From: a virus
Lineage: Duplodnaviria; Heunggongvirae; Uroviricota; Caudoviricetes
DNA: 47,208 bases
Reading direction: 5' to 3' (one strand)
Virus record (IMG/VR): IMGVR_UViG_2721755498_000001
The notes beneath the pieces are model-generated. The model did no database searches and was not told the origin of the DNA. It worked only from the letters and a program-made list of their open reading frames with translations. The position numbers and the translations under genes are program-made. Of this stretch, positions 514 to 47,169 are shown piece by piece. Positions within the stretch are counted from its first letter, which is position 1. Every line of letters begins with the position of its first letter.

Positions 514-1413
514 TTATGTCTGGATGTGGTCGTCAACACATCCTCTTTTAAATACAGGCGCTTTTACCTTAGTTGGATCATCTGTTTTAAAGATTTTCAA
601 TCGTTCACTGAAGAACATTACCTCAGATCCTTTGTACCGATCTTGAGCACTGTAGTTTATTCCATATACTAATGAGGATGTCTTATACATAGCTTGGATC
701 TCAGGAGTGTTATCGTAAGAAACAATCCAAGGCGTTTTAATATTATTCTGTACGACTTTTGCAACCCTAACATGATCATCATGATCATAATGGTTGATAT
801 ATAAGCCTTTACCTTTTATGTAATAAGGTGGATCCAAATAGGTTAATGAGTTTTGTGGCAATTGAATAACTATTTTTTTTATGAAATCAATTGCATCCAT
901 GTTATATAAATCTATTCTGTGACGATTTTCTGATATTCTATGGATTCGAGAAATCAAATCACTCTTATTATAGCGAGCGTCAAGCTTCCATTTCCCTTCT
1001 TGATTTTTACCGCCAATTACACCACCTTTTAATATTCCAGAACGATTTGTTCTATTGAGAAAAAAGGTTGAGAAACCAATTGTTAAAAGATCATGGTCTT
1101 TAGGATTATTAATTATATCTTTCTGCCTAAACCATTCATCCATTGTAACTTCTGTTCTTTCAACTAAAGAACATAATTGATCTGCATGATTTAATACACT
1201 GTGCCAAAAAGCATAAACAGAAATATTAATATCATTAAGGATGATTTTTTCAGCTGCATTTAGATGTAACAGTTTCAATGCTAAACCAGCACCCCCAGCA
1301 TATGGTTCGGCATAATGTATAGGCGAAAGATTATTTTCTTCAATAATCCGAAGCATGAAATTTGCAAGCTTGCCTTTACCGCCAGGATAGCGAAGTGGGG
1401 TGTTAAAACGCAT
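514..1413 (-). CDS. Dam-family (alpha-class, D12-like) DNA N6-adenine methyltransferase
   Basis: Motifs YPGGK, EPYAGGAG, LNRTNRSG and DPPYY align with E. coli Dam WAGGK / EPFVGAGS / LNRYGYNG / DPPY; RBS AGAGGT before the ATG; visibly AT-rich region. Confidence 0.85.
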   Translation of the reverse strand: MRFNTPLRYPGGKGKLANFMLRIIEENNLSPIHYAEPYAGGAGLALKLLHLNAAEKIILNDINISVYAFWHSVLNHADQLCSLVERTEVTMDEWFRQKDIINNPKDHDLLTIGFSTFFLNRTNRSGILKGGVIGGKNQEGKWKLDARYNKSDLISRIHRISENRHRIDLYNMDAIDFIKKIVIQLPQNSLTYLDPPYYIKGKGLYINHYDHDDHVRVAKVVQNNIKTPWIVSYDNTPEIQAMYKTSSLVYGINYSAQDRYKGSEVMFFSERLKIFKTDDPTKVKAPVFKRGCVDDHIQT

Positions 1414-1492
1414 ATGATACCTCTAAATGTCAGATCTAAAGTATATCAAAAAAAGGGCTTTATGGCCATCACATAAAACCCTTTTTAATCAA

Positions 1493-3226
1493 TTAGTTAT
1501 TTGACAGATATGATGAGATGGTAGCAGAATCGACACCATGTCCACTTATCATAATAACTTTAAGACTCTTTATTAGTTCATTCTTGAAGCTATCCGATTG
1601 CACAGGATTTTTCTCGACCCAATATCGATATGGGTTATCTTTAACTCGTCCTTTGACTTGGTCCTGAAATTGAGTCGTATGTGCAAAATCTTTAAACAGT
1701 TTTCTCACTCTCCCGCCATGATTTTTGTTAACTTTTTTATAATTATCTATAAGGATTTTTAAATCAATCGGAGCGTTACCAATCTTTAGCGTTGTAATTA
1801 TGTCTTTAGCTGTTTTCATAAAAACAGATTTTGTAAATTTATTTTTATTTTCCCAATATGCATCATCAGGTGGTAAATTATATAAAAACTCAAAAATCAT
1901 TTGATCTGGAGGTAAGGTGCTTGGAAGCAAACATAAGTTTTTTTCTTTTTTGGCTTTTTTTGCATTAGCACTGTTGTCGTGAACAACATCACCGTCTAAG
2001 ACGATCAAGCTTTTAGCTGTAAATTCTGGTATTTTTCTTGCCATTAAGTCAAGCATGGCAGAGCAGCTAATATTTATATTCCCTAATGGATTTAATATTT
2101 TATTTATTTTTCGATCTGTTATCAATTGTTTGAAAAAGTCGAAACCTTCTTTGTCTTCAAAATATACATTTGCTTTTGGAAGACAAATGTCATCATTAAT
2201 TTTTACAGTTTCAACATGTAAATCAGCGTGGATATCTGTCCATGAAAGATTATTCTTTGTTTTAATATCTCCATATGTGTCTGTAAGATATATTGTTTTA
2301 AAGCTATCACTATCTTGTTTTGAACGATTATAGATATCCTCTATTATTAATGGAGAGTGCGAGGTCATGATTATTTGCAGATCGTATTGTTTTGCTGCTT
2401 TAGTTAGAATATTAATTAACTCTAACTGTGCAGCAGGGAAAAGACCTGCATCGGCTTCATCAATTAACAATATTCCGCCATGATAATCAGAATAAGTTTC
2501 CTTCAATCTTTTAAATGAAAAAATTGCTTGGATTAATTGTCCAACATTATCTTCACCAACAGATACTGATTGGTGATCATAATTGTCACCATGGACAACC
2601 ATTGAATCGATAGTACCTTTTGTTGCTGTTACTGAGCTTCCATTGTTTTTTAGTAAGAGTTGGTTACTCATCATTCTGATTTCATCAGAATTTTCATTGA
2701 TGTACTGAACATCCCGTGTTGAGTAATTAGTCCTTAATGTAATAGGAAGAAGTCGTGCTAAGCTTAAAAAAATAACAGGATGAGTAACGTTTCTACTTTG
2801 GTTTTTTTCCGGTATTGAATCATTTCCCCTGACTACAGGCCTTGATTTATCTCTGTCACTGTAGCTGTATAAACCTAATGTTAGTTTTTCAAGATGTTTG
2901 TTCGATGCACCATCATAGACACTAATTTTGACGTCCATTGAACCAGGAACATCAAATTGTTCTGAAAGCCTAAAATGTTCGCTGAAAGCTGACTTGAAGC
3001 TGCCATTTGTTAATGTTTTATATTGTGTTAAATCAGTCTCAGGTTTTTTGGTAAAGTCCTTTGTAAAGCTAAATATTTGGGCGATAATGCCAAGAATTGT
3101 GGATTTAGATGTGCCATTTTTACCACAAATAACAGTTAGGCGAGAACCAAACTCGATGTTTATATTTTTCAGTCCGCGAAACTTCACAACATTTATATTT
3201 TTTAGTTTGGTAATTTGATTTGCCAT
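1493..3226 (-). CDS. ABC-type ATPase (OLD/GajA-like) with putative C-terminal TOPRIM nuclease domain
   Basis: Walker A GKNGTSKST, Walker B ILLIDEADAGL, H-loop TSHSP; C-terminal E...DxD pattern (YFEDKEG ... IVLDGD) typical of TOPRIM. Start taken at the internal ATG (MANQITK) with upstream GGAG; the ORF is open to 3277. AT-rich; co-oriented with int. Confidence 0.7.
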   Translation of the reverse strand: MANQITKLKNINVVKFRGLKNINIEFGSRLTVICGKNGTSKSTILGIIAQIFSFTKDFTKKPETDLTQYKTLTNGSFKSAFSEHFRLSEQFDVPGSMDVKISVYDGASNKHLEKLTLGLYSYSDRDKSRPVVRGNDSIPEKNQSRNVTHPVIFLSLARLLPITLRTNYSTRDVQYINENSDEIRMMSNQLLLKNNGSSVTATKGTIDSMVVHGDNYDHQSVSVGEDNVGQLIQAIFSFKRLKETYSDYHGGILLIDEADAGLFPAAQLELINILTKAAKQYDLQIIMTSHSPLIIEDIYNRSKQDSDSFKTIYLTDTYGDIKTKNNLSWTDIHADLHVETVKINDDICLPKANVYFEDKEGFDFFKQLITDRKINKILNPLGNINISCSAMLDLMARKIPEFTAKSLIVLDGDVVHDNSANAKKAKKEKNLCLLPSTLPPDQMIFEFLYNLPPDDAYWENKNKFTKSVFMKTAKDIITTLKIGNAPIDLKILIDNYKKVNKNHGGRVRKLFKDFAHTTQFQDQVKGRVKDNPYRYWVEKNPVQSDSFKNELIKSLKVIMISGHGVDSATISSYLSNN

Positions 3227-3250
3227 GTTTGTATCTTGCTCCGTAAAATG

Positions 3251-3267
3251 GCCACAAATTGTGGCCA
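3251..3267. promoter_or_regulatory. Perfect 17-bp palindrome between int stop and ATPase start (terminator or operator candidate)
   Basis: ggccacaaattgtggcc at 3251-3267; followed by ATTTTA on the minus strand. Confidence 0.3.
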
Positions 3268-3284
3268 ATAGTTTCATGCTTGGA

Positions 3285-4451
3285 TTATATTGTTATCTTC
3301 TTCAAGCTTGTTTGTCCATCATATTCCTTCAGATATGAGCCATAGTGCCTGAAAAGCATCTCCGGTCCTTTATGCCCCATTTGAGCTGCAAGCCAAAACA
3401 GGTTTGCTCCCCGGCTGATATGGCGGGTGGCGAATGTATGCCTAGTTTGATATGGATTTCTGTAACGAATACCTGCTTTTCGCAATGTTGGCACCCATGC
3501 TTTTTTTCTGATTGCATCAGCACTTGCCCATGGCTTATTGGTCTTTGGATCTTCAAAGACAGTAGCATCCTTCATGAATGTAAATGGCTTCTGGTTTATC
3601 AACGCCAACATTGCTTCTTCAGTCAGTTCAACTTTACGGGTACCGGCTTTTGTCTTTGTTCCTTTGATAACTCCGACAACACTTGCGCTCTGAACATGGG
3701 CTGTTTTTCCAACAAAGTCGATATCATGCCATCGTAGGGCACATAATTCAGAACTACGCAGGCCTGTATGTATGGCGAACCGGAACAGATTTTCCCATTG
3801 TTTGTTTCCGGCTGCTGCTAGTAATGCATCAACTTCTGCTGGTGATAGCGGATCAACCACATAGCTGCTTTCTGCTTCTGACTTATCACTTTGGTAGCGC
3901 GAAGCTGTTACTAACGATACGGGGTTAATTTGAAGTACCCCATCGGTCACGGCTTCATCAAGTGCTGACCGTAGGAAAGATAACTGGTTGCGAATGGTTT
4001 TTAAGGTTGTTTTCTGGCTTTGAATCCACGCTTTCAGGGTTGCTGGTGTTAATTCACTTGCAGGGCAAATGTGAAGTGAGGCTAACGCACTACGGCATTT
4101 TTTATAGCCACCAATCGTAGAGGGTGAAAGTTTTCTTGTTTCGCAGATTTCAAGATATTCGTCCAGGTACATCTTTACCGTTTTGCCTGCAGCAGCATTA
4201 CCAAAAATTTTCAAACGAGCAGAACGGGGAAAATATTCTGCATAAATGAATGTTCCCCTTTCGATCTTATTATGGATTTCGCCGAGTGTACGCTCGGCGT
4301 ATTTAATGTTCTTTGGTGTTACTTCCAGATTGGAAAGCGGCTCACGACATCTAACTCCTTTGTAGGTGAAAGTTATATTGATCGTTTCTCCCTGGCGGTG
4401 TTTCCTGATTGTTACGCCGCGCGGTAGTTTGAGCAGTTTTGTCTGGCCCAT
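3285..4451 (-). CDS. int: Phage integrase, tyrosine recombinase
   Basis: 388 aa; C-terminal catalytic region with R...H..R...Y context (HTFATRHISRGANLFWLAAQMGHKGPEMLFRHYGSY); next to xis and the att end. Confidence 0.9.
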   Translation of the reverse strand: MGQTKLLKLPRGVTIRKHRQGETINITFTYKGVRCREPLSNLEVTPKNIKYAERTLGEIHNKIERGTFIYAEYFPRSARLKIFGNAAAGKTVKMYLDEYLEICETRKLSPSTIGGYKKCRSALASLHICPASELTPATLKAWIQSQKTTLKTIRNQLSFLRSALDEAVTDGVLQINPVSLVTASRYQSDKSEAESSYVVDPLSPAEVDALLAAAGNKQWENLFRFAIHTGLRSSELCALRWHDIDFVGKTAHVQSASVVGVIKGTKTKAGTRKVELTEEAMLALINQKPFTFMKDATVFEDPKTNKPWASADAIRKKAWVPTLRKAGIRYRNPYQTRHTFATRHISRGANLFWLAAQMGHKGPEMLFRHYGSYLKEYDGQTSLKKITI

Positions 4452-8241: not shown

Positions 8242-8934
8242 TTAATTGTGTCGCTTAAGGGTTTGTGACTGGCTGATTAAGACCTTTCCAAAGACCATAA
8301 ACCGGTGTTCATTTTCGCTGGTAATTCCCCATTCACGGTAAATCTGGTTATCAGAAATCACCAGTAGTTTGTCAGGTATCATTTGCAGTCGTTTGACATA
8401 AATTTTATCATCAAAACCAAATACATAGATACCATCTCCATCAAACTGATTGATACTGACATCAACGAAGATGAGATCTCCTGGCTCAATGGTTGGACAC
8501 ATACTGTCCCCACGAACGTTGATAACTTTAATGTGATTGGCTGGCCGTCCGCCAAACATCGATACAGCATTATCAGTTCTGTATTCAATGGCATGAATCA
8601 CATCAATGACATCACCGCCCTGGATAAGGCCATTTCCCGCACTGGCACTGACATCCAGCATTTCAATACGGAATACATCCTTCACCTGCGCAACATCCTC
8701 ACTAATACTGTTTTTACATACAGTATTACTTTTGACGTCTGAGGTAAAGAGATCTGCAATATCAACACCTAAGCTCCTGGCAATATTACTCAGGGCTTGT
8801 TCAGTGAATTGTTTCTGCTTACCTGTTTCCAGGCGTGAGATATTCGCCGCATCCACTCCTATTGCTTCAGCGAGATCGGCGATCTTCATGTTCTTCGCCT
8901 GGCGAAGTTGTCTGACTCGGTTTCCTATGTTCAT
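8242..8934 (-). CDS. cI: CI-like prophage repressor (HTH plus S24 LexA-like peptidase domain)
   Basis: N-terminal HTH (MKIADLAEAIGVDAANISRLETG) and C-terminal S24 region (VRGDSMCPTIEPGDLIFVD ... KRL); divergent from cro. Confidence 0.9.
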   Translation of the reverse strand: MNIGNRVRQLRQAKNMKIADLAEAIGVDAANISRLETGKQKQFTEQALSNIARSLGVDIADLFTSDVKSNTVCKNSISEDVAQVKDVFRIEMLDVSASAGNGLIQGGDVIDVIHAIEYRTDNAVSMFGGRPANHIKVINVRGDSMCPTIEPGDLIFVDVSINQFDGDGIYVFGFDDKIYVKRLQMIPDKLLVISDNQIYREWGITSENEHRFMVFGKVLISQSQTLKRHN

Positions 8935-10180: not shown

Positions 10181-11137
10181 ATGAGCACTAAATTAACCGG
10201 CTATGTATGGGATGGTTGCGCTGCATCAGGCATGAAATTATCCAGCGTGGCAATTATGGCCCGCCTGGCTGATTTCAGTAATGACGAAGGTGTGTGCTGG
10301 CCATCAATTGAAACCATTGCCCGTCAGATTGGCGCGGGGATGAGTACCGTCAGAACGGCTATCGCACGGCTGGAAGCAGAAGGCTGGTTAACGCGTAAGG
10401 CGCGTCGCCAGGGTAACCGCAATGCGTCGAATGTTTATCAGCTTAACGTTGCGAAGCTTCAGGCAGCGGCATTTTCTCAACTGTCAGATTCTGACCCGTC
10501 AAAATCTGACGCATCAAAATCTGACGCATCAAAATCTGACCCGTCAAAATTTGATGCGTCGAAATCTGGCAAAAAAGCGGGTTTTCACCCGTCAGAATCT
10601 GGCGGGGATCCGTCAGTAAAATCAAAACATGATCCGTCAGATAAAAAACCTTCTCGTCCGGACGCTTCGCAACCGGACACGCAGACGGCTGAACAGGATT
10701 TTTTAACTCGCCATCCTGATGCGGTTGTATTCAGCCCTAAAAAGCGCCAGTGGGGGACGCAGGATGATTTGACCTGCGCACAGTGGCTCTGGAAAAAAAT
10801 CATCGCCCTGTACGAGCAGGCTGCCGAATGTGACGGCGAGGTGGTTCGTCCCAAAGAACCGAACTGGACAGCCTGGGCAAACGAAATTCGCCTGATGTGT
10901 GTGCAGGATGGTCGTACTCACAAACAAATCTGCGAGATGTACAGCCGCGTCAGCCGCGATCCGTTCTGGTGCCGTAACGTGCTCAGCCCGTCGAAGCTGC
11001 GGGAAAAATGGGATGAGCTTTCTCTGCGCTTATCGCCGTCCGTCAGCACGTACACAGAAAAACGCGAAGACCCGTACTTCAAAGCCAGTTACGACAACGT
11101 GGACTACAGCCAGATCCCGGCAGGATTCAGGGGGTGA
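10181..11137 (+). CDS. Replication initiator, lambda O-like, with internal origin iterons
   Basis: N-terminal HTH region; internal DNA iterons encode an SKSD-repeat peptide. Confidence 0.65.
   Translation: MSTKLTGYVWDGCAASGMKLSSVAIMARLADFSNDEGVCWPSIETIARQIGAGMSTVRTAIARLEAEGWLTRKARRQGNRNASNVYQLNVAKLQAAAFSQLSDSDPSKSDASKSDASKSDPSKFDASKSGKKAGFHPSESGGDPSVKSKHDPSDKKPSRPDASQPDTQTAEQDFLTRHPDAVVFSPKKRQWGTQDDLTCAQWLWKKIIALYEQAAECDGEVVRPKEPNWTAWANEIRLMCVQDGRTHKQICEMYSRVSRDPFWCRNVLSPSKLREKWDELSLRLSPSVSTYTEKREDPYFKASYDNVDYSQIPAGFRG
10486..10650. repeat. Origin-like iterons inside the O-like gene
   Basis: Five 15-bp units at 10486-10560 with the core TCAAAATCTGAC (e.g. ccgtcaaaatctgac, gcatcaaaatctgac), then degenerate CCGTCAG-containing copies to about 10650. 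Confidence 0.6.
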
Positions 11138-11628
11138 TCATGAGTCTTTTGAATGAAGTTCAGAAATTCATTGAAGCCCATCCGGGGTGTACTTCCGGAG
11201 ACATTGCGGATGCTTTTGCAGGTTACTCACGGCAGCGCGTTCTGCAGTCAGCAAGCAAGTTACGTCAGAGTGGGCGTGTGGCTCACCGTTGTGAAGGAGA
11301 TACACGCAGACATTTCCCACGCCTGACTGAGAGAGCGCAGGAGCCGGAACCACAACCAGTTCGTGAAACCAGACCTGTGCGCAATTTCTATGTCGGCACT
11401 AACGATCCCCGGGTGATTTTGTGCCTGACCCGCCAGGCGGAAGAACTGGAGTCCAGGGGCTTATACCGTCGTGCTGCAACGGTGTGGATGGCGGCATTCC
11501 GTGAAAGCCACTCCCAGCCAGAACGAAACAATTTTCTGGCGCGTCGTGAGCGGTGCTTACGGAAAAGCAGCAAGCGCGCTGCATCGGGTGAAGAGTGGTA
11601 TCTGTCAGGGAATTACGTGGGGGCTTAA
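11134..11628 (+). CDS. Hypothetical regulatory protein, possibly PerC-like
   Basis: 164 aa; LYRRAATVWMAAFRES segment recalled as PerC-like; stop overlaps the next start (TAATG). Confidence 0.35.
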   Translation: MIMSLLNEVQKFIEAHPGCTSGDIADAFAGYSRQRVLQSASKLRQSGRVAHRCEGDTRRHFPRLTERAQEPEPQPVRETRPVRNFYVGTNDPRVILCLTRQAEELESRGLYRRAATVWMAAFRESHSQPERNNFLARRERCLRKSSKRAASGEEWYLSGNYVGA

Positions 11629-12053
11629 TGAGTAATAAATATTGCCAGGCGCTGGTGGAGCTGCGGAACAAACCAGCCCATGAACTGAAGGAAGTGGGCG
11701 ATCAGTGGCGCACGCCGGATAACATTTTCTGGGGAATTAACACCCTGTTTGGCCCGTTTGTTCTGGATCTGTTCACTGATGGTGATAACGCCAAATGTGC
11801 CGCTTATTACACTGCGGAAGACAACGCGCTGGCGCATGACTGGTCTGAACGTCTTCCCGCCAACCAATCAGGAGGTGGCAACCATGCTGGGATACCGTTC
11901 GGTGAATGCAGCGGTGGAGCATCTTCGCGCACTGGAGAAAAAAGGCGTCATCACGATAAAGCGTGGCGTGGCCCGGGGGATAACGCTTCATACCGCGGTG
12001 AAGGACGACGACAGCGAGGCGGTCGGGATTATCCGCGCACTGCTTGCCGGTGA
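11628..12053 (+). pseudogene. Truncated phage-type Dam N6-adenine methyltransferase (N-terminal about 80 aa only, yfdM-like)
   Basis: [49 protein letters not shown]...AHDWSERL matches the phage Dam N-terminus; no DPPY/NPPY catalytic motif follows; the rest of the frame is low-complexity. Confidence 0.5.
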
Positions 12054-12111
12054 GGAAAACGCAAGGCTGCGTGCAACCCACTGGTTACATGAGAGGGACC
12101 TGAAAGTATGA
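11884..12111 (+). CDS. Small protein with LexA-like winged-helix DNA-binding domain (no peptidase domain)
   Basis: Strong RBS AGGAGGTG before the ATG; [35 protein letters not shown] aligns with LexA [34 protein letters not shown]. Confidence 0.5.
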
Positions 12112-12497
12112 AGCTGATCCTGCCTTTTCCGCCCAGCGTGAACACGTACTGGCGACACCCCAACAAAGGGGCGTTTGCTGGTAAGAGCCTGATAAGCGCG
12201 GCGGGGCGAAAATTCCAGAGCGCGGCGTGCGCAGCAATAGTTGAGCAGTTACGTCGTCTGCCGAAACCAACGTCGGCACCTGCTTCAGTGGAGATCGTGT
12301 TGTTTCCTCCGGATAACCGGATCCGCGATCTGGACAACTATAACAAGGCGCTGTTTGACGCCCTGACCCACGCGGGTGTGTGGGAAGACGACAGTCAGGT
12401 GAAAAGAATGCTGGTGGAGTGGGGACCGGTTATCCCGAAAGGGAAGGTCGAGATCACTATCAGTAAGTATGAGAAACCGGCGGGTGCAGCCGCCTGA
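12108..12497 (+). CDS. rusA: RusA-family Holliday junction resolvase
   Basis: 129 aa; [25 protein letters not shown] matches the RusA catalytic region (DLDN...DD.Q). Confidence 0.85.
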
Positions 12498-12516
12498 TTA
12501 AGAGGAGAAACGAAGT

Positions 12517-13314
12517 ATGAATAATCTGATGGTCATTGATGGTATTGAAGTTCGTCGTGATGCTTATGGGCGTTACAGCCTGAACGATCTGCACAGGGCT
12601 GCCGGTTCTCTGGATAAGCATAAGCCTGCATTCTGGCTCCGCAATGAGCAAACTGAACGTTTAATAAGCGAGTTGCAGATTTGCAACTCGGTCAATATAG
12701 AGCCAGTTAACGTTATTCGTGGCGGAAATAACCAGGGGACGTATGTCTGCAAAGAACTGGTGTATGCCTATGCAATGTGGATCAGCCCGGCATTCCATCT
12801 GAAGGTGATCCGTACTTTCGATATGGTAACCAGCGCACCGGAAAAATTATCCGGGCAGGCTGCTGACAAGATGCAGGCTGGTGTGATTCTGCTGGACTTT
12901 ATGCGCAGGGAGTTAAACCTGTCTAACTCTTCAGTGCTTGGTGCCTGTCAGAAACTCCAGGAGGCTGTTGGCTTACCGAATCTGGCACCGCGCTATGCCA
13001 TTGATGCTCCTGCTGACGCGCCTGATGGCTCAAGTCGCCCTACGCTGTCGCTGAGTGCACTGCTGAAACAGTATGGTATCCGCCTGACGGCTAATCAGGC
13101 ATATCACCAGATGGCTAAGCTGGGGATCGTTGAACAACGCGAACGATACAGCCGTACCGCGATTAACAACATCAAAAAATTCTGGTCGCTGACAGCGAAA
13201 GGCTGCATGTTCGGCAAGAACATCACCAGTCCCGCAAATCCGCGCGAGACGCAGCCGCATTTCTTCGAATCCCGATTCCCTGAGCTGTTAAAGCTGCTCG
13301 ATACCGTTCATTGA
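12517..13314 (+). CDS. KilA-N domain protein (antirepressor-like)
   Basis: N-terminal pattern DGIEVRRDAYGRYSLNDLHRAAG...KPAFWLRNEQT typical of KilA-N. Confidence 0.55.
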   Translation: MNNLMVIDGIEVRRDAYGRYSLNDLHRAAGSLDKHKPAFWLRNEQTERLISELQICNSVNIEPVNVIRGGNNQGTYVCKELVYAYAMWISPAFHLKVIRTFDMVTSAPEKLSGQAADKMQAGVILLDFMRRELNLSNSSVLGACQKLQEAVGLPNLAPRYAIDAPADAPDGSSRPTLSLSALLKQYGIRLTANQAYHQMAKLGIVEQRERYSRTAINNIKKFWSLTAKGCMFGKNITSPANPRETQPHFFESRFPELLKLLDTVH

Positions 13315-13315
13315 G

Positions 13316-14311
13316 GTGACCGTGAGAGCACTACTGACCCCTGAAATTGCCCCGCGTATGGGGATCGTATTGTTCAGGCCCGGTTCAGAGCTGATGCCCC
13401 TGTTTATGCAGGGGCGTGTCCTGCTGGAGCCTGAGCCGGAGCATTATTCATCTTTCGCCAGTGGTGCCGTTCCCGCGGCGTCACAACCGCTGGCGGATGA
13501 TCCTGCTGTTCGGGCCGTGTTCCGCAATGAGGCAGTGATCCGTCGTGCTGGTGGCGTGGAATGTCTTGAAAGCTGGTTACTTCGTGAAAAAGGCTGCCAG
13601 TGGCCTCATTCCGACTGGCACAGCGAGAACATGACCACAATGCGACACGCTCCGGGTGCAATCCGTCTGTGCTGGCACTGCGATAACCAGCTGCGCGATC
13701 AGTTCACGGAACGGCTGGAATCAATGGCAACGGATAACTGTGCCCGCTGGGTGTTGTCTGTTGTGCGTCGGGATCTCGGTTTTGATGACAGTCACGTTGT
13801 GACAATGCCGGAACTGTGCTGGTGGCTGATTCGTAATGACCTGGCGGATGCCTTACCGGAAAGTGCAGCCCGTAAGGCACTGAGATTACCGAAGCCTGTT
13901 GTGCCGTCTGTCACCCGGGAAAGTGACCTTGTGCCTTCGGTTCCTGCTACCAGCATCATCCAGGATAAGGCGAAAAAGGTGCTGGCGCTGAAAGTGGATC
14001 CGGAGTCGCCGGAGTCTTTTATGTTACGCCCAAAACGTCGCCGCTGGGTTAATGAAAAGTACACGCGCTGGGTTAAGACACAGCCGTGTGCATGTTGTGG
14101 AAAGCCCGCTGATGATCCCCACCACCTGATAGGTTACGGTCAGGGTGGAATGGGAACAAAAGCGCATGACCTTTTTGTGTTGCCTTTGTGCAGAAAGCAT
14201 CACGACGAGCTGCATGCGGATACCGTGGCATTTGAAGAAAAGTATGGCTCCCAGTTGGAGCTGATATTTCGTTTTATCGATCGCGCGCTGGCAATTGGCG
14301 TATTGGCGTAA
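13316..14311 (+). CDS. Phage protein with C-terminal Cys/His zinc-binding motif (DUF968-like)
   Basis: 331 aa; C-terminal CACCGKP...HH...CRKHHDELH; position in the nin-like region. Confidence 0.45.
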   Translation: MTVRALLTPEIAPRMGIVLFRPGSELMPLFMQGRVLLEPEPEHYSSFASGAVPAASQPLADDPAVRAVFRNEAVIRRAGGVECLESWLLREKGCQWPHSDWHSENMTTMRHAPGAIRLCWHCDNQLRDQFTERLESMATDNCARWVLSVVRRDLGFDDSHVVTMPELCWWLIRNDLADALPESAARKALRLPKPVVPSVTRESDLVPSVPATSIIQDKAKKVLALKVDPESPESFMLRPKRRRWVNEKYTRWVKTQPCACCGKPADDPHHLIGYGQGGMGTKAHDLFVLPLCRKHHDELHADTVAFEEKYGSQLELIFRFIDRALAIGVLA

Positions 14312-16360: not shown

Positions 16361-17413
16361 ATGAAAAATACTGTAAAAATAAACAGTGTTGATTTAATCA
16401 ACGCTGATTGCCTGCATTTTATTCAGTCCCTGCCTGATGATTCCATTGACCTGATTGTTACCGATCCGCCGTACTTCAAGGTGAAACCCAACGGCTGGGA
16501 CAATCAGTGGAAAGGGGACGAAGATTACCTTAAGTGGCTGGACCACTGTCTGGCCCAGTTCTGGCGGGTGTTAAAACCTGCCGGAAGCCTTTACCTGTTC
16601 TGTGGGCATCGCCTGGCATCTGATATTGAGATCATGATGCGTGAACGTTTCAACGTGCTTAACCATATCATCTGGGCGAAGCCGTCCGGACGTTGGAATG
16701 GGTGTAATAAAGAAAGTCTGCGCGCATATTTTCCTGCCACAGAGCGCGTTCTGTTTGCTGAACATTACCAGGGGCCATATCGCGGCAAAAGTGACGGCTA
16801 TGCGGCAAAAGAAAGGGAACTCAAACAGCACATAATGGCACCGCTGATATCGTATTTCAGGGATGCTCGTGCCGAACTGGGTATAACGGCAAAACAAATT
16901 GCCGAAGCCACAGGTAAGAAAAATATGGTTTCCCACTGGTTTGGTGCCAGTCAGTGGCAGTTGCCGAATGAGGCTGACTATCGGAAGTTACAGGCACTGT
17001 TTTCCCGTATAGCGGCAGAGAAGTTTCAGGAACAACAACTGGAACAACCACACCACCAGCTGGTGGCATCTTATGATTCACTGAATCGCAAATATTCTGA
17101 ATTGCTGGATGAGTTTAAATCTCTCCGGCGCTATTTCTCCGTATCAGTCTCCGTGCCTTATACCGATGTCTGGATGCATAAACCCGTTCAGTTCTACCCG
17201 GGTAAACATCCGTGTGAGAAACCGGCGGATATGCTCAGGCAAATAATCAATGCCAGTAGTCGACCTGGTGATCTGGTTGCTGATTTTTTTATGGGATCCG
17301 GTTCCACAATAAAAGCAGCAATGGCGCTGGGGCGTCGGGCCTTAGGTGTTGAGCTTGAGTCAGAGCGGTTTAACCAGACAGTGAAAGAGATAAACGAGCT
17401 GGTGGGGAAATAA
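16361..17413 (+). CDS. Orphan beta-class DNA methyltransferase (N6-adenine or N4-cytosine)
   Basis: Motif [11 protein letters not shown] near the N-terminus and motif I FFMGSGST near the C-terminus (beta-class order); no adjacent nuclease gene. Confidence 0.8.
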
Positions 17414-43534: not shown

Positions 43535-43895
43535 TCATTGCAAGGGCTCACAACCAGTAGTGTTGAGAAAACCATCGGAGAAATGAGGCTAAGCCTTTGA
43601 ATTTACATAGTACAAAAAAGATACTTTTCCTCATAATGTGAGCTAATTTTATGTTTCGTTTGATGATTGGACCGGTCTCGAAAACCGTAGACACATAGTA
43701 TGCGTTAATTTATGAACAAACTACTTGTCTGCTGTTTTTCTGTCATTAGTCGTATATAGAATGATTCTCTATGCCTAACAAAGCATCACCAGTGCTAGAT
43801 TACGTTGTAGTCACTGTTTAAATATCCAGATAAAACATTTCCTTCTGGGTTGAATGAGTGATAAAGTTTCACCCATTAGACCCCTTGGAGGAATT

Positions 43896-45329
43896 ATGTC
43901 TGAATTTGAAGTGTTGGCACAGCATCTGCTGAAGGAAGCCGAGGCGGAAGAAAAGCTGCGACAGGAAAATGATAAAAAGCTTATCGAGAAAGTGCTGGAA
44001 ATCTATGATCAGAAGTATGTGGCTGAATTACTGAGAAAAGTCGGAAAAAATGAGTGGAGCCGTGAAACCATTAACCGCTGGATTAATGGCAAGTGTTTAC
44101 CAAAATCGTTGACTTCAGTAGAAGAGTCTCTTCTGCGTAAGATGCTACCAGAACCACCTGCAAACCATCCGGAATATGCTTTCCGCTTCATTGACTTATT
44201 TGCTGGAATTGGAGGGATACGGAAAGGTTTTGAGGCCATTGGAGGCCAGTGTGTTTTTACCAGTGAATGGAATAAAGATGCTGTGCGTACATACAAGGCC
44301 AACTGGTTTAACGATGAACAGGTGCATAAATTCAATCTCGATATTCGGGAAGTCACGCTGAGTGATAAAACCGATGTATTGGAAACGGATGCTTATGCAT
44401 ATATTGATGAGCATGTGCCGGATCATGATGTGCTTCTTGCGGGGTTCCCGTGCCAGCCATTTAGCCTTGCTGGTGTTAGTAAGAAAAACTCACTTGGTCG
44501 TGCGCATGGTTTTGAATGTGAAGCACAAGGAACACTTTTTTTTGACGTGGCACGTATTATACGAGCAAAAAAACCGGCAATTTTTGTGCTGGAAAATGTC
44601 AAAAATCTGAAGAGCCATGATAAGGGTAAAACTTTCAAAGTCATTATGGAGACCCTTGACGAGCTGGGCTACGAAGTTGCCGATGCTGCAGAAATGGGAA
44701 AAAACGATCCAAAGATTATCGATGGGAAGCATTTTTTGCCTCAGCATCGTGAACGCATTGTTCTGGTCGGATTTAGACGAGATCTGAATATTCACAAGGG
44801 GTTTACCTTGCGTGATATCAGTCGTTTTTATCCGGAACACCGCCCATCATTTGGTGAATTGCTGGAGCCTGTAGTCGACAGTAAATATATACTTACGCCA
44901 AAACTATGGGAGTACCTTTATAACTACGCCAAAAAGCATGCAGCCAAGGGGAATGGTTTTGGCTTTGGGTTGGTCAATCCTGAGAATAAGGAAAGCATTG
45001 CACGCACACTTTCTGCCAGATATCACAAAGACGGATCAGAAATTCTTATTGATCGTGGTTGGGATATGGCAACGGGAGAGGCTGACTTTATGAATGAGAG
45101 TAATCAGGCTCGTCGACCACGCAGGCTGACTCCCCGAGAGTGCGCACGCCTTATGGGATTTGAAAAACCTGGAGGGAAACCATTCCGTATTCCGGTTTCA
45201 GATACTCAGTCATATCGGCAGTTCGGTAACTCAGTTGTGGTGCCAGTATTTGAAGCTGTTGCCAGACTTCTGGAACCCTATATCCTCAAAGCTGTTTCTG
45301 CTGATGCTGGTAAGACTGGGCAGCCTTGA
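43896..45329 (+). CDS. DNA cytosine-5 methyltransferase, Dcm / M.EcoRII-like
   Basis: Motif [16 protein letters not shown], motif [10 protein letters not shown], motif VI ENVKNL; N-terminal region close to E. coli Dcm; 477 aa from the RBS-supported ATG, the length recalled for M.EcoRII. Confidence 0.9.
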
Positions 45330-45363
45330 GAACATCTCCCGGCCTTTTAAGCCGGGAGTCAGC

Positions 45364-46578
45364 CTATGATAGTTCAGCGTAAAGCTCTATCAGCTCAGTA
45401 ATGAATGCTCCGAGCGTTATTAATTCTTCTCTAACTGCTTCTGGGTATTTTTTATGTAAAGTTGATGGTACAACGAGTCTGACACCCGCATCTTTCATTT
45501 CTCGGTATTGTGCTGAAGAAACACCTTCTTGCAGTGTAAATAAATGTACCTGATGGATTTTATCTGCTTCATTCAGTATCTGACGCCAGCGATCTTTGCA
45601 GGTGGTCTTTACTGCCAGCATACGTAAGTTTTCTACAGGAAATTCAACGTTATGATATGCCTCTGCTGAAGGAAACAGGAAATCTGGTTTTTTATTACCT
45701 TCAGTAACTGCCTGAGTGGAGAAATGCCGTAGTCCGTGCTCGATAAAAAGCTTCTCTAGGTGAAGTTCAAGTGATTTGCCTGCCCTTGATTTACGTCGAT
45801 TACTGACAGAGTTGGCTAATGCAATAAACTCATCTACAGAATCGAATCCTTTCTTAATAATATCAAGAACATGTAATTCCTCGACGAGTAGAAAAATATC
45901 ATACTCGACACGCCGACGGTCAATCAGTTGCTCATCTGGATCCTTGGAGTTTTTAGCATAATGGCCAGCAGCATATTGAATAATTTCGTTTCCAGAAGGA
46001 AAACGCTTCTTCCAGTCTTCAGGAATAACATATTTATGATTTACTGGAGTTTGCTGAAGAGACAATCCGCCCAAAATTTGTCCGGCAGGGCCGGAAATTA
46101 GGGTTCCAGGTATGATTTCGCCAATAGCAGACTCGATGATATCCTCTTCATCGGGATTGACGCAGACCCATATATCTACCTCGGAACAGTCAGTGTTCTG
46201 TTCGTTTAACCTGAAAGCAAGAATTGTGAGGGCTCCTGTATTTTCAGGGTTCTGTAATGGACTTCCTCTCCCCCAGCGCGTAATTCTTTTTTCGTTTCGG
46301 GTCTTACCAAAATAACGGTTGTTGTAATAAATTGCGCGTGCTTGGGTATCAGGGCAATCATGGGATGATACATGCGCAGTAAGGAAGACTGAAGGGTTCA
46401 GTTCGCGAGTATGATTGATAGATGGAAAAAGCTTTTCAACGATATTTGAGGGGATATAAAGTCCGACCTGATGGCCACCTGTTGCGCCTGTGTCGTTTGC
46501 AGAAAGGCGTTTGATGTAGATAAAGTAATTCCCGCTTGCGATATCAAGCAGCCAGTTATGAAAAACCGACATATACAT
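45364..46578 (-). CDS. Type IIE restriction endonuclease, EcoRII-like
   Basis: 404 aa, the length recalled for R.EcoRII; convergent with a Dcm-like methyltransferase; identity from memory, not search-confirmed. Confidence 0.65.
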   Translation of the reverse strand: MYMSVFHNWLLDIASGNYFIYIKRLSANDTGATGGHQVGLYIPSNIVEKLFPSINHTRELNPSVFLTAHVSSHDCPDTQARAIYYNNRYFGKTRNEKRITRWGRGSPLQNPENTGALTILAFRLNEQNTDCSEVDIWVCVNPDEEDIIESAIGEIIPGTLISGPAGQILGGLSLQQTPVNHKYVIPEDWKKRFPSGNEIIQYAAGHYAKNSKDPDEQLIDRRRVEYDIFLLVEELHVLDIIKKGFDSVDEFIALANSVSNRRKSRAGKSLELHLEKLFIEHGLRHFSTQAVTEGNKKPDFLFPSAEAYHNVEFPVENLRMLAVKTTCKDRWRQILNEADKIHQVHLFTLQEGVSSAQYREMKDAGVRLVVPSTLHKKYPEAVREELITLGAFITELIELYAELS

Positions 46579-46651
46579 CCCTTTGTTAACATACAGTCAG
46601 GGTTAACATTTTTCCATAGTTATAGATAAGCGGCTAGGAACTTAAGGGAAA

Positions 46652-46683
46652 AACAAAAAGCCCGCATAAGCGGGCTTTTGTGT
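46652..46683 (-). terminator. Rho-independent terminator downstream of ssrA (bidirectional hairpin)
   Basis: aaagcccgc-ataa-gcgggcttt flanked by an A-tract and a T-tract. Confidence 0.55.
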
Positions 46684-46806
46684 CACTCGAGAGCCGCGGC
46701 TCCTTTGCGTATCCTTTTTTGTCTCCTCACCGTCTGGTCGGTGTCCTGCTGAGACTGCTAACTTCCTGTTTTTGTTGGTGTTGTCCTTACACCGTCCAAT
46801 CATGAT

Positions 46807-46839
46807 TGGTGGAGCTGGCGGGAGTTGAACCCGCGTCCG
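46807..46839. repeat. attR core: ssrA 3' end, duplicated at 409-441
   Basis: Matches 409-441 with one mismatch. Confidence 0.85.
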
Positions 46840-47169
46840 AAATTCCTACATCCTCGGTACTACATGCTTAGTCAGTCTTTACATTCGCTTGCCAGCTGCG
46901 GACGGACACGCCACTAACAAACTAGCCTGATTAAGTTTTAACGCTTCAACCCCAGGCAGGACTTCCACGCGATCTCTTTTGGGTTTGACCTCTCTTGATC
47001 CCCGTCCTAAGAGCGGAGGCTAGGGAGAGAGGGCTCTAAGCAGGTTATTAAGCTGCTAAAGCGTAGTTTTCGTCGTTTGCGACTATTTTTTGCGGCTTTT
47101 TACGAGGCCAACCGCCCCTCGGCATGCACCTTGGGTTTCGCAAATCCCGTCGAATCCAGAATCAGCCCC
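46807..47169 (-). ncRNA. ssrA: tmRNA (SsrA), 363 nt
   Basis: Reverse complement runs from GGGGCTGATTCTGGATTCGACGGG to the tRNA-like 3' end CCAGCTCCACCA; tag-encoding region recognisable. Confidence 0.95.

What the first reader, a model, noticed from the sequence alone, without database searches (positions are those of the whole stretch)
11628..12111. Mosaic junction: truncated phage Dam fused to a LexA-DNA-binding-domain-like ORF with its own strong RBS
The first about 80 codons match the phage-type Dam N-terminus, but the catalytic motif is missing. At about 11865 the Dam-like frame degenerates, and a +1-frame ORF begins at 11884 behind AGGAGGTG. That ORF has roughly 60 percent identity to the LexA recognition helix and wing but lacks the cleavage domain. 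A non-cleavable LexA-like DNA-binding protein could occupy SOS boxes or phage operators and modulate induction.
Basis: partly seen in the sequence, partly recalled or inferred. Interest (0 to 1): 0.5.

Follow-up and report, generated by a model that had tools for sequence, protein, structure and literature searches.

The report
Deletion scar joining two broken prophage genes
This is the scar of a 493-base deletion in an E. coli lambdoid prophage that cut off the back of a phage Dam methylase gene and the front of a small LexA-like gene, leaving two gene fragments rather than a new regulator, so it is ordinary prophage decay.

Summary
Window 11628-11855 encodes residues 1-76 of a 217-aa phage Dam, without its NPPY motif. 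A 75-codon ORF (11884-12111) behind AGGAGGTG matches the LexA recognition helix and wing at about 61% identity.

The interpretation does not hold. Close relatives (97-100% identical flanks: phages mEp460, SfV, SfII, Stx2c phages, and at least the 60 best-matching of 1,661 complete E. coli genomes with a full-coverage match) carry intact dam (654 bp), then an intact 108-codon 'LexA DNA-binding-domain protein' gene, then rusA. The window lacks 493 bp between them. The junction is GAACGTCTT|CCCGCC, with a 3-bp CTT microhomology.

The deletion removed Dam residues 77-217 and LexA-like codons 1-23, and it shifts the frame. The 'own RBS' and ATG are internal codons Q29-M34 of the ancestral gene. An ORF starting there lacks helices 1 and 2 of the winged helix-turn-helix, whose residues are nearly invariant in the family.

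The allele is real but rare. It is absent from 5,426 complete E. coli genomes. It is identical in two other public assemblies, which are the same prophage and possibly the same sample.

Verdict: pseudogene remnants of two known, annotated genes. Low interest.

The parts
11134..11628 (+). Intact upstream neighbour, a PerC/YfdN-family gene. Its stop overlaps the dam start (TAATG).
   Evidence: PF06069 PerC, E 7.8e-09. Annotated 'yfdN, PerC family transcriptional regulator' in the relatives.
11628..11855 (+). dam' remnant: codons 1-76 of a 217-codon phage N-6-adenine methyltransferase. The catalytic NPPY motif and everything after it are deleted.
   Evidence: PF05869 E 3.6e-20 over profile 3-60/169. 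TIGR01712 over 1-62/165. Residues 1-76 identical to the intact Dam. DNA collinear with mEp460, SfV and Br_190 up to this point.
11853..11855 (+). Deletion junction: CTT is shared by both parental flanks (3-bp microhomology). 493 bp are missing after it.
   Evidence: Br_190 left flank GAACGTCTT|GCGG, right flank AGTGGCTT|CCCGCC; window GAACGTCTT|CCCGCC. The blastn pieces lie 493 bp apart in the relatives.
11854..12111 (+). 'lexA-like remnant: codons 24-108 plus the stop of the 108-codon 'LexA DNA-binding-domain protein' gene (SfV orf42, mEp460_046). It is in the +1 frame relative to dam'.
   Evidence: The 120-aa frame matches PF01726 profile 24-65 (E 6.4e-11). 98-100% DNA identity to the 3' part of the intact gene.
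11870..11877 (+). AGGAGGTG, a Shine-Dalgarno-like octamer 6 nt upstream of ATG 11884. In the ancestral gene it falls within codons Q29-E30-V31.
   Evidence: Sequence read. The same bases lie inside the intact ORF of mEp460, Br_190, D5 and others.
11884..12111 (+). It keeps helix 3, the wing and the C-terminal two-helix tail, and lacks helices 1 and 2.
   Evidence: Aligns to LexA residues 35-70/86. Secondary structure of the intact model: H6-22, H28-35, H40-52, E56-59, E65-68, H74-87, H93-103. The single-sequence model of the remnant is poor (pLDDT 56).
11628..12053 (+). Chimeric reading frame: 76 Dam codons, then 65 out-of-frame codons read through the lexA-like remnant. It stops 55 nt before the rusA start.
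   Evidence: ORF list and alignment. This exact product is not in the 15-billion-protein collection.
12108..12497 (+). Intact rusA. Its ATG overlaps the lexA-like stop (ATGA), the arrangement of translational coupling.
   Evidence: PF05866 RusA, E 6.6e-15. Annotated as RusA in the relatives.

Best explanation
A single 493-bp deletion in the early-right (replication/nin-like) operon of an E. coli lambdoid prophage joined codon 76 of a phage dam gene to codon 24 of the adjacent 108-codon LexA-DNA-binding-domain gene. The join used a 3-bp microhomology (CTT).

Shown:
- The ancestral order is perC-like, dam, lexA-like, rusA, with overlapping stop/start codons.
- The deletion endpoints are as stated.
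- The deletion length is 1 mod 3, so the two remnants are out of frame.
- Dam loses its NPPY catalytic motif and two thirds of its domain.
- The LexA-like gene loses its start codon and helix 1.

Inferred:
- Both genes are null alleles.
- The event was illegitimate (slipped-strand or microhomology-mediated) recombination.
- The internal AGGAGGTG-N6-ATG may still start translation of a 75-residue fragment. That fragment should not fold into a winged HTH.
- Any such translation would matter mainly by keeping ribosomes arriving at the ATGA overlap with rusA.
- Loss of these accessory genes need not affect phage viability, because the rest of the prophage looks intact.
For: - 51 phage records match the 1.5-kb region at 97-98.5% identity. 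All 30 listed match in two pieces spanning about 1,993 bp for 1,501 query bases.
- mEp460 and SfV annotate dam (654 bp), a LexA DNA-binding-domain protein or orf42 (327 bp), then rusA.
- 2,653 of 5,426 complete E. coli genomes carry the module. All 60 best hits have the extra 493 bp, and two have 100% identical flanks.
- Domain truncation is shown by Pfam, NCBIfam and PDB alignments.
- The intact protein model superposes on the LexA N-terminal domain at 1.3 A over 68 columns.
- N-terminal residues 1-33 are nearly invariant in the family.
- The identical junction occurs in an ENA metagenome scaffold (L007) and a Logan SRA assembly (L009), each 100% identical to the window over 6.2 and 4.4 kb.
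- Other independent lesions of the same gene pair are common in public assemblies: in-frame Dam-LexA-like fusion P0113, perC'-'lexA-like deletion L010, ymfL'-'lexA-like fusion P0054, the 1-nt insertion in L008, and many frameshifted forms.
Against: - The SD-like octamer with ideal spacing means translation of the 75-codon fragment cannot be excluded.
- The fragment keeps the recognition helix, the wing and a C-terminal two-helix tail.
- No expression or binding data exist.
- L007 and L009 may come from the same strain or even the same sample as the window, so independent confirmation of the allele is not proven.
- A 3-bp microhomology is weak evidence for any particular deletion mechanism.
Confidence: 0.9

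Rival explanations
1. The 75-codon ORF is a working gene with its own RBS. Its product is a non-cleavable mini-LexA that occupies SOS boxes or phage operators and modulates induction.
For: - There is a perfect 8-nt SD complement 6 nt before ATG 11884.
- Identity to LexA helix 3 and the wing is 61%, with S39, N41, A42 and E45 retained.
- SOS-box-like palindromes exist in the same prophage at 8706-8725 and 16369-16388.
- A characterised phage protein made only of a LexA DNA-binding domain exists: GIL01 gp6 (PMC6182141).
Against: - The ORF is the 3' part of a 108-codon gene that is intact in the relatives examined.
- It lacks helices 1 and 2 of the three-helix core. GIL01 gp6 and the intact relatives keep all three.
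- The missing residues are nearly invariant in the family.
- The allele is absent from 5,426 complete E. coli genomes.
- The remnant model is poor, with pLDDT 56 and no wing predicted (weak evidence, because it was a single-sequence run).
Confidence: 0.04
2. Dominant-negative fragment. The remnant is translated and cannot bind DNA alone. Through its C-terminal two-helix tail (ancestral residues 74-103) it pairs with intact 108-aa paralogues from co-resident prophages and poisons them.
For: - The SD-ATG is retained.
- The C-terminal helices are predicted with good confidence in the intact model and are fully retained in the remnant.
- E. coli genomes carry up to 4 copies of the module, so partners can exist.
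Against: - There is no evidence that the C-terminal tail mediates oligomerisation.
- There is no sign of selection for the allele, which is rare.
- The function of the intact protein is itself unknown.
Confidence: 0.03
3. Assembly or sequencing artefact. The 493 bp are present in the organism but were collapsed during assembly.
For: The junction is absent from complete E. coli genomes, GTDB representatives, IMG/VR and JGI metagenomes.
Against: - The identical junction appears in contigs from two other collections built with different assemblers (ENA scaffold L007, Logan contig L009).
- No repeat longer than 3 bp flanks the deleted segment that could cause a collapse.
- The junction reads cleanly and both flanks are collinear with the relatives.
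Confidence: 0.02

Closest known systems
Phage N-6-adenine methyltransferase (Pfam PF05869 'Dam', NCBIfam TIGR01712), e.g. SfV dam and mEp460_045
   Same: Residues 1-76 are identical or nearly identical to these proteins. The genomic position is the same, directly after the perC/yfdN-like gene with an overlapping start.
   Different: Only the first third is present. The NPPY motif and the remaining 141 residues are deleted, and the frame runs on into 65 unrelated codons. It is a pseudogene, not an enzyme.
The 108-aa 'LexA DNA binding domain protein' or 'LexA family transcriptional regulator' of lambdoid prophages (SfV orf42, mEp460_046, WP_052894503.1, WP_000210155.1)
   Same: Window 11854-12111 is 98-100% identical in DNA to codons 24-108 of this gene. 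It has the same downstream ATGA overlap with rusA.
   Different: The start codon and codons 1-23 (helix 1) are deleted. The only SD-preceded start left (M34) also removes helix 2. I found no experimental study of the intact protein's function in four literature searches.
E. coli LexA (PDB 1lea, 3jso, 1jhh; TIGR00498)
   Same: The intact phage protein aligns residue for residue with LexA 2-69 (E 6.9e-16), and its model superposes at 1.3 A with 50% identity. The remnant keeps the part aligned to LexA 35-70.
   Different: There is no S24 peptidase domain, no Ala84-Gly85 cleavage site and no LexA dimerisation domain, in either the intact or the truncated form. Scores of 70.8 and 34.9 bits fall below the 110.95-bit cut-off. 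A 40-residue two-helix tail takes their place.
GIL01 gp6, a phage-encoded 'truncated LexA homologue' that activates late promoter P3 (Fornelos et al. 2018, PMC6182141)
   Same: The concept is the same as for the intact 108-aa protein: a phage protein consisting mainly of a LexA-type winged HTH without the cleavage domain.
   Different: It is a Bacillus tectivirus protein and was not compared here by sequence. gp6 has the complete three-helix wHTH, which the window's ORF lacks. It is an analogy for the ancestral gene, not for the remnant.

Membership tests
Phage Dam methyltransferase (PF05869 / TIGR01712) | Homologous N-terminal region | tested here: met
   PF05869 E 3.6e-20. TIGR01712 99.8 bits against a 97.05-bit cut-off. 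Residues 1-76 identical to the intact Dam.
Phage Dam methyltransferase (PF05869 / TIGR01712) | Full-length methyltransferase domain | tested here: not met
   Only profile positions 3-60 of 169 (Pfam) and 1-62 of 165 (NCBIfam) are matched. Residues 77-217 are absent.
Phage Dam methyltransferase (PF05869 / TIGR01712) | Catalytic (D/N)PPY motif | tested here: not met
   GNPPY at residues 83-87 of the intact protein lies inside the deleted 493 bp.
LexA repressor (TIGR00498 equivalog) | Complete N-terminal winged helix-turn-helix (helices 1-3 plus wing) | tested here: not met
   The 75-aa ORF aligns from LexA position 35 onward. Helices 1 and 2 (residues 6-22 and 28-35 of the intact model) are missing.
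LexA repressor (TIGR00498 equivalog) | C-terminal S24 peptidase domain with a self-cleavage site | tested here: not met
   No PF00717 hit. TIGR00498 gives 34.9 bits against a 110.95-bit cut-off, matching profile 35-91 only. The intact 108-aa relatives lack the domain as well.
108-aa prophage LexA_DNA_bind protein (PF01726-only family; SfV orf42 type) | Near-identical sequence and the conserved position between dam and rusA | tested here: met
   98-100% DNA identity over codons 24-108, with the ATGA overlap with rusA retained.
108-aa prophage LexA_DNA_bind protein (PF01726-only family; SfV orf42 type) | Intact ORF with the native start and the conserved residues 1-33 | tested here: not met
   Codons 1-23 are deleted. 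Most of residues 1-33 (about 22, among them M1, T2, L4, T5, Q8, Q9, V11-S17 and T33) are invariant or nearly invariant in 17-20 homologues.
Functional DNA-binding regulator of the GIL01 gp6 type | Sequence-specific DNA binding and an effect on transcription | not testable with these tools
   Requires EMSA and reporter assays. There is only the analogy from PMC6182141.

The most novel reading that the evidence does not exclude
The fortuitous internal Shine-Dalgarno/ATG lets the deletion allele produce a 75-residue fragment holding the LexA-type recognition helix, the wing and a C-terminal two-helix tail. This fragment would act in trans, for example by poisoning intact 108-aa paralogues from co-resident prophages or by weakly occupying the SOS-like boxes seen at 8706-8725 and 16369-16388. 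The scar would then have a regulatory phenotype.
Probability: 0.03. Interest if true: 0.3.

Novelty: already known. Interest (0 to 1): 0.08.

Why it matters
It matters little in itself. It is a rare null allele of two accessory prophage genes that are already catalogued and routinely annotated.

There are two modest uses:
- It shows how an internal SD-like coding sequence plus a Met codon can pass for an independent gene once the 5' end is deleted. Gene callers do call this 75-aa ORF.
- The allele is a natural double knock-out of the phage Dam and of the uncharacterised LexA-DNA-binding-domain-only protein, which is found in about half of complete E. coli genomes. Comparing it with an isogenic intact prophage could help find what that protein does.

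Tried and rejected
- Functional mini-LexA: rejected on the domain truncation and on the intact relatives.
- Mosaic join of unrelated modules: rejected. Both flanks are contiguous neighbours in relatives with 97-100% identity, and only 493 bp are missing.
- In-frame Dam-LexA fusion protein: rejected for the window, because 493 is 1 mod 3 and the frames differ. Such in-frame fusions do exist elsewhere (P0113).
- Private or artefactual junction: exact-pattern scans of GTDB genomes, IMG/VR and JGI metagenomes, and a junction-specific megablast against 5,426 E. coli genomes, all found nothing. An exact-protein look-up then found the same junction in ENA and Logan contigs.
- Deletion hot spot at lexA-like codons 23-26: three independent deletions end there (the window, L010, L006). 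Many other rearranged forms break elsewhere, and the look-up by the exact 75-aa product biases towards this site. Not claimed.
- Local promoter for the small ORF: none was found in 11000-12700 apart from one weak site at 12498, which is no more than chance gives.
- Literature on the intact 108-aa protein or on SfV dam/orf42: four searches found nothing specific, and the SfV genome paper is not held.
- Two run_python calls failed and were replaced by DNA alignment.
It was redone with P0001 as the first sequence.

Full report
WHAT IS IN THE SEQUENCE

Window 11628-12111 lies in the rightward early operon of a lambdoid prophage. The gene order is:
- a replication gene (10181-11137);
- a PerC/YfdN-like gene (11134-11628);
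- the region in question;
- rusA (12108-12497);
- a KilA-N gene (12517-13314);
- a DUF968 gene (13316-14311).

From ATG 11628 the frame encodes a sequence that hits the phage Dam family (PF05869, E 3.6e-20; TIGR01712, 99.8 bits). Only the first third of either profile is matched.

A second frame (+1) carries ATG 11884, which lies 6 nt downstream of AGGAGGTG (11870-11877). It encodes 75 residues that match the LexA DNA-binding domain:
- PF01726, E 7.8e-07, profile positions 35-65;
- E. coli LexA residues 35-70, E 4.8e-07, 22 identities in 36 columns.

WHAT THE RELATIVES SHOW

A megablast of 11100-12600 against phage records gave 51 hits, 50 of them at 95-99% identity. They include mEp460, SfV, SfII, vB_EcoS-569R4 and Stx2/Stx2c-converting phages. 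All 30 listed hits matched in two pieces spanning about 1,993 bp for the 1,501-bp query.

In mEp460 and SfV the annotated order is hypothetical/PerC, dam (654 bp), 'LexA DNA binding domain protein' or orf42 (327 bp, 108 aa), then rusA. Stop and start codons overlap between these genes.

Against 5,426 complete E. coli genomes, 2,653 carry the module. All 60 best hits span 804 bp for a 311-bp query, which is 493 bp extra. Two of them (Br_190_kylling and 2017.20.01CC) have flanks 100% identical to the window. RefSeq annotates the pair there as 'phage N-6-adenine-methyltransferase' and 'LexA family transcriptional regulator'.

THE JUNCTION

In Br_190_kylling:
- the left flank reads ...GACTGGTCTGAACGTCTT|GCGGAGCTTAAAGGTGCTGCCTTTGGTAATCCCCCGTAC... 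(Dam ...D-W-S-E-R-L76|A-E-L-K-G-A-A-F-G-N-P-P-Y);
- the right flank reads ...CAGAAAGAAAGTGGCTT|CCCGCCAACCAATCAGGAGGTGGCAACCATG... (LexA-like ...Q-K-E-S-G23-F24[10 protein letters not shown]34).

The window reads GAACGTCTT|CCCGCC. Exactly 493 bp are missing, with a 3-bp CTT microhomology at the joint (window 11853-11855). In alleles of the mEp460 type, a GAACGT block sits 2 nt out of register next to it.

Because 493 is 1 mod 3, the two remnants are out of frame. The dam frame reads 76 native codons and then 65 nonsense codons to a stop at 12051-12053. The lexA-like frame retains codons 24-108 but has no native start.

CONSEQUENCES FOR THE PROTEINS

Dam loses residues 77-217, including GNPPY at 83-87. 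It cannot be an active methyltransferase. This follows from the established role of the (D/N)PPY motif in N6-adenine methyltransferases.

The intact LexA-like protein aligns residue for residue with LexA 2-69 (E 6.9e-16). Its AlphaFold model (mean pLDDT 78.8) contains:
- helices at 6-22, 28-35 and 40-52;
- a two-strand wing at 56-59 and 65-68;
- a two-helix tail at 74-87 and 93-103.

The model superposes on the LexA-DNA complex 3jso at 1.3 A over 68 columns with 50% identity.

The deletion removes helix 1, and starting at M34 also removes helix 2. About 22 of residues 1-33 are invariant or nearly invariant among 17-20 homologues from Escherichia, Citrobacter, Salmonella and Hafnia, so that part is under constraint.

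A single-sequence model of the 75-aa fragment is poor, with pLDDT 56 and no wing predicted. This is weak evidence, because the two runs differ in alignment depth.

The 'own strong RBS' is the coding sequence cag-gag-gtg-gca-acc-atg of the ancestral gene. It may still act as a start site. That is inference and could not be tested here.

IS THE ALLELE REAL, AND HOW COMMON IS IT?

The junction sequence was not found in:
- GTDB species representatives;
- IMG/VR;
- JGI metagenomes;
- 5,426 complete E. coli genomes, using a junction-specific 58-mer.

The chimeric 141-aa product is not in the 15-billion-protein collection. The exact 75-aa product is in it, on 39 contigs.

Of the contigs read for that product:
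- L007 (ENA ERZ28638468, 40-kb scaffold, plus two similar places not shown) and L009 (Logan ERR13731104) carry the identical junction. They are 100% identical to the window over 6,228 and 4,433 bp.
- The others yield the same 75-aa call for different reasons: contig ends, a 1-nt insertion (L008), or a different deletion (L010) that joins the perC-like gene to the same spot through a 7-bp CCCGCCA repeat.

The allele is therefore real but rare. It may be confined to one clone, and the independence of the samples is unverified.

THE REGION DECAYS OFTEN

The homologue search returned many rearranged forms:
- an in-frame Dam(1-73)-LexA-like(51-108) fusion (P0113);
- a YmfL-LexA-like fusion (P0054);
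- RusA-LexA-like fusions;
- frameshifted C-termini that carry the same out-of-frame peptide as the window's dam read-through (P0088, P0094).

Some of these may be assembly noise. Taken together they fit ordinary prophage decay in accessory genes.

CONTEXT

The window is an E. coli prophage and island region next to ssrA:
- tmRNA at 46807-47169;
- right flank 100% identical to several E. coli chromosomes;
- an integrase (3285-4451);
- a CI-like S24 repressor (8242-8934);
- complete-looking head, tail and lysis modules.

No promoter-like site beyond chance lies near the small ORF. Transcription would come from the early operon.

COMPARISON WITH KNOWN SYSTEMS

Both parental genes are known and routinely annotated. 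Four literature searches found no experimental study of the 108-aa protein.

The nearest characterised analogue in concept is GIL01 gp6. It is a phage 'truncated LexA homologue' made of the LexA winged HTH, and it activates the late promoter P3 (PMC6182141). That analogy applies to the intact ancestral gene, not to the remnant, which lacks two of the three core helices.

From my own recollection of the 3jso paper (not tested here), the base-contacting LexA residues S39, N41, A42 and E45 are conserved in the phage family. The intact protein may therefore recognise CTGT-type half-sites.

VERDICT

The feature is a 493-bp deletion scar that left two pseudogene fragments of known genes. Confidence is 0.9, interest is low (0.08), and novelty is 'already known'.

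Noticed in passing
window 8706-8725 and 16369-16388: There are two SOS-box-like palindromes (TACTGT-N8-ACAGT[A/G]). One lies inside the CI-like S24 repressor gene (8242-8934, minus strand). The other covers codons 3-9 of an N6_N4 methyltransferase gene (16361-17413). At up to 1 mismatch there are 4 strand-matches against 0.47 expected, and 1 of 100 shuffles reaches that. The second site is conserved in the E. coli D5 prophage (L004 30743-30761). Another relative (L011 698-716) has such a box between rusA and the KilA-N gene. These could be host LexA sites or targets of the intact LexA-like protein.
   Followed up: partly
window 10490-10568: A tandem repeat of 15 bp x 5.3 copies (consensus TCTGACCCGTCAAAA) lies inside the replication-initiator-like gene 10181-11137. 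It encodes the SDASK/SDPSK repeats. It looks like origin iterons embedded in an O-like gene.
   Followed up: no
L010 736-742; L006 2165-2180; L005 2501-2899 (P0113); L008 about 2950: Other public assemblies carry independent lesions of the same gene pair. L010 has a perC'-'lexA-like deletion through a 7-bp CCCGCCA repeat. L006 has a ymfL'-'lexA-like in-frame fusion. P0113 is a Dam(1-73)-LexA-like(51-108) in-frame fusion. L008 has a 1-nt insertion. Three deletions, including the window's, end within lexA-like codons 23-26. Many other variants break elsewhere, and the look-up method biases towards this site.
   Followed up: partly
window 43854-47169: The right flank holds an EcoRII-type restriction-modification pair and the ssrA tmRNA gene. 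The C5 cytosine methyltransferase is at 43854-45329, the EcoRII endonuclease at 45364-46578 on the minus strand, and ssrA at 46807-47169. The region is 100% identical to several E. coli chromosomes.
   Followed up: partly
window 514-3277: A D12-class Dam methyltransferase gene (514-1413, minus strand) and a 594-aa AAA/SMC-like ATPase gene (1493-3277, minus strand) sit next to the integrase gene (3285-4451). They may be defence or moron cargo. The element therefore still encodes at least two other DNA methyltransferases despite losing the PF05869 Dam.
   Followed up: no
window 11884-12111, in public annotations: Gene callers in public collections do call this 75-aa ORF and name it 'LexA family transcriptional regulator' or 'repressor LexA' (P0121, 39 contigs). 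The annotation overstates what the fragment can be.
   Followed up: yes
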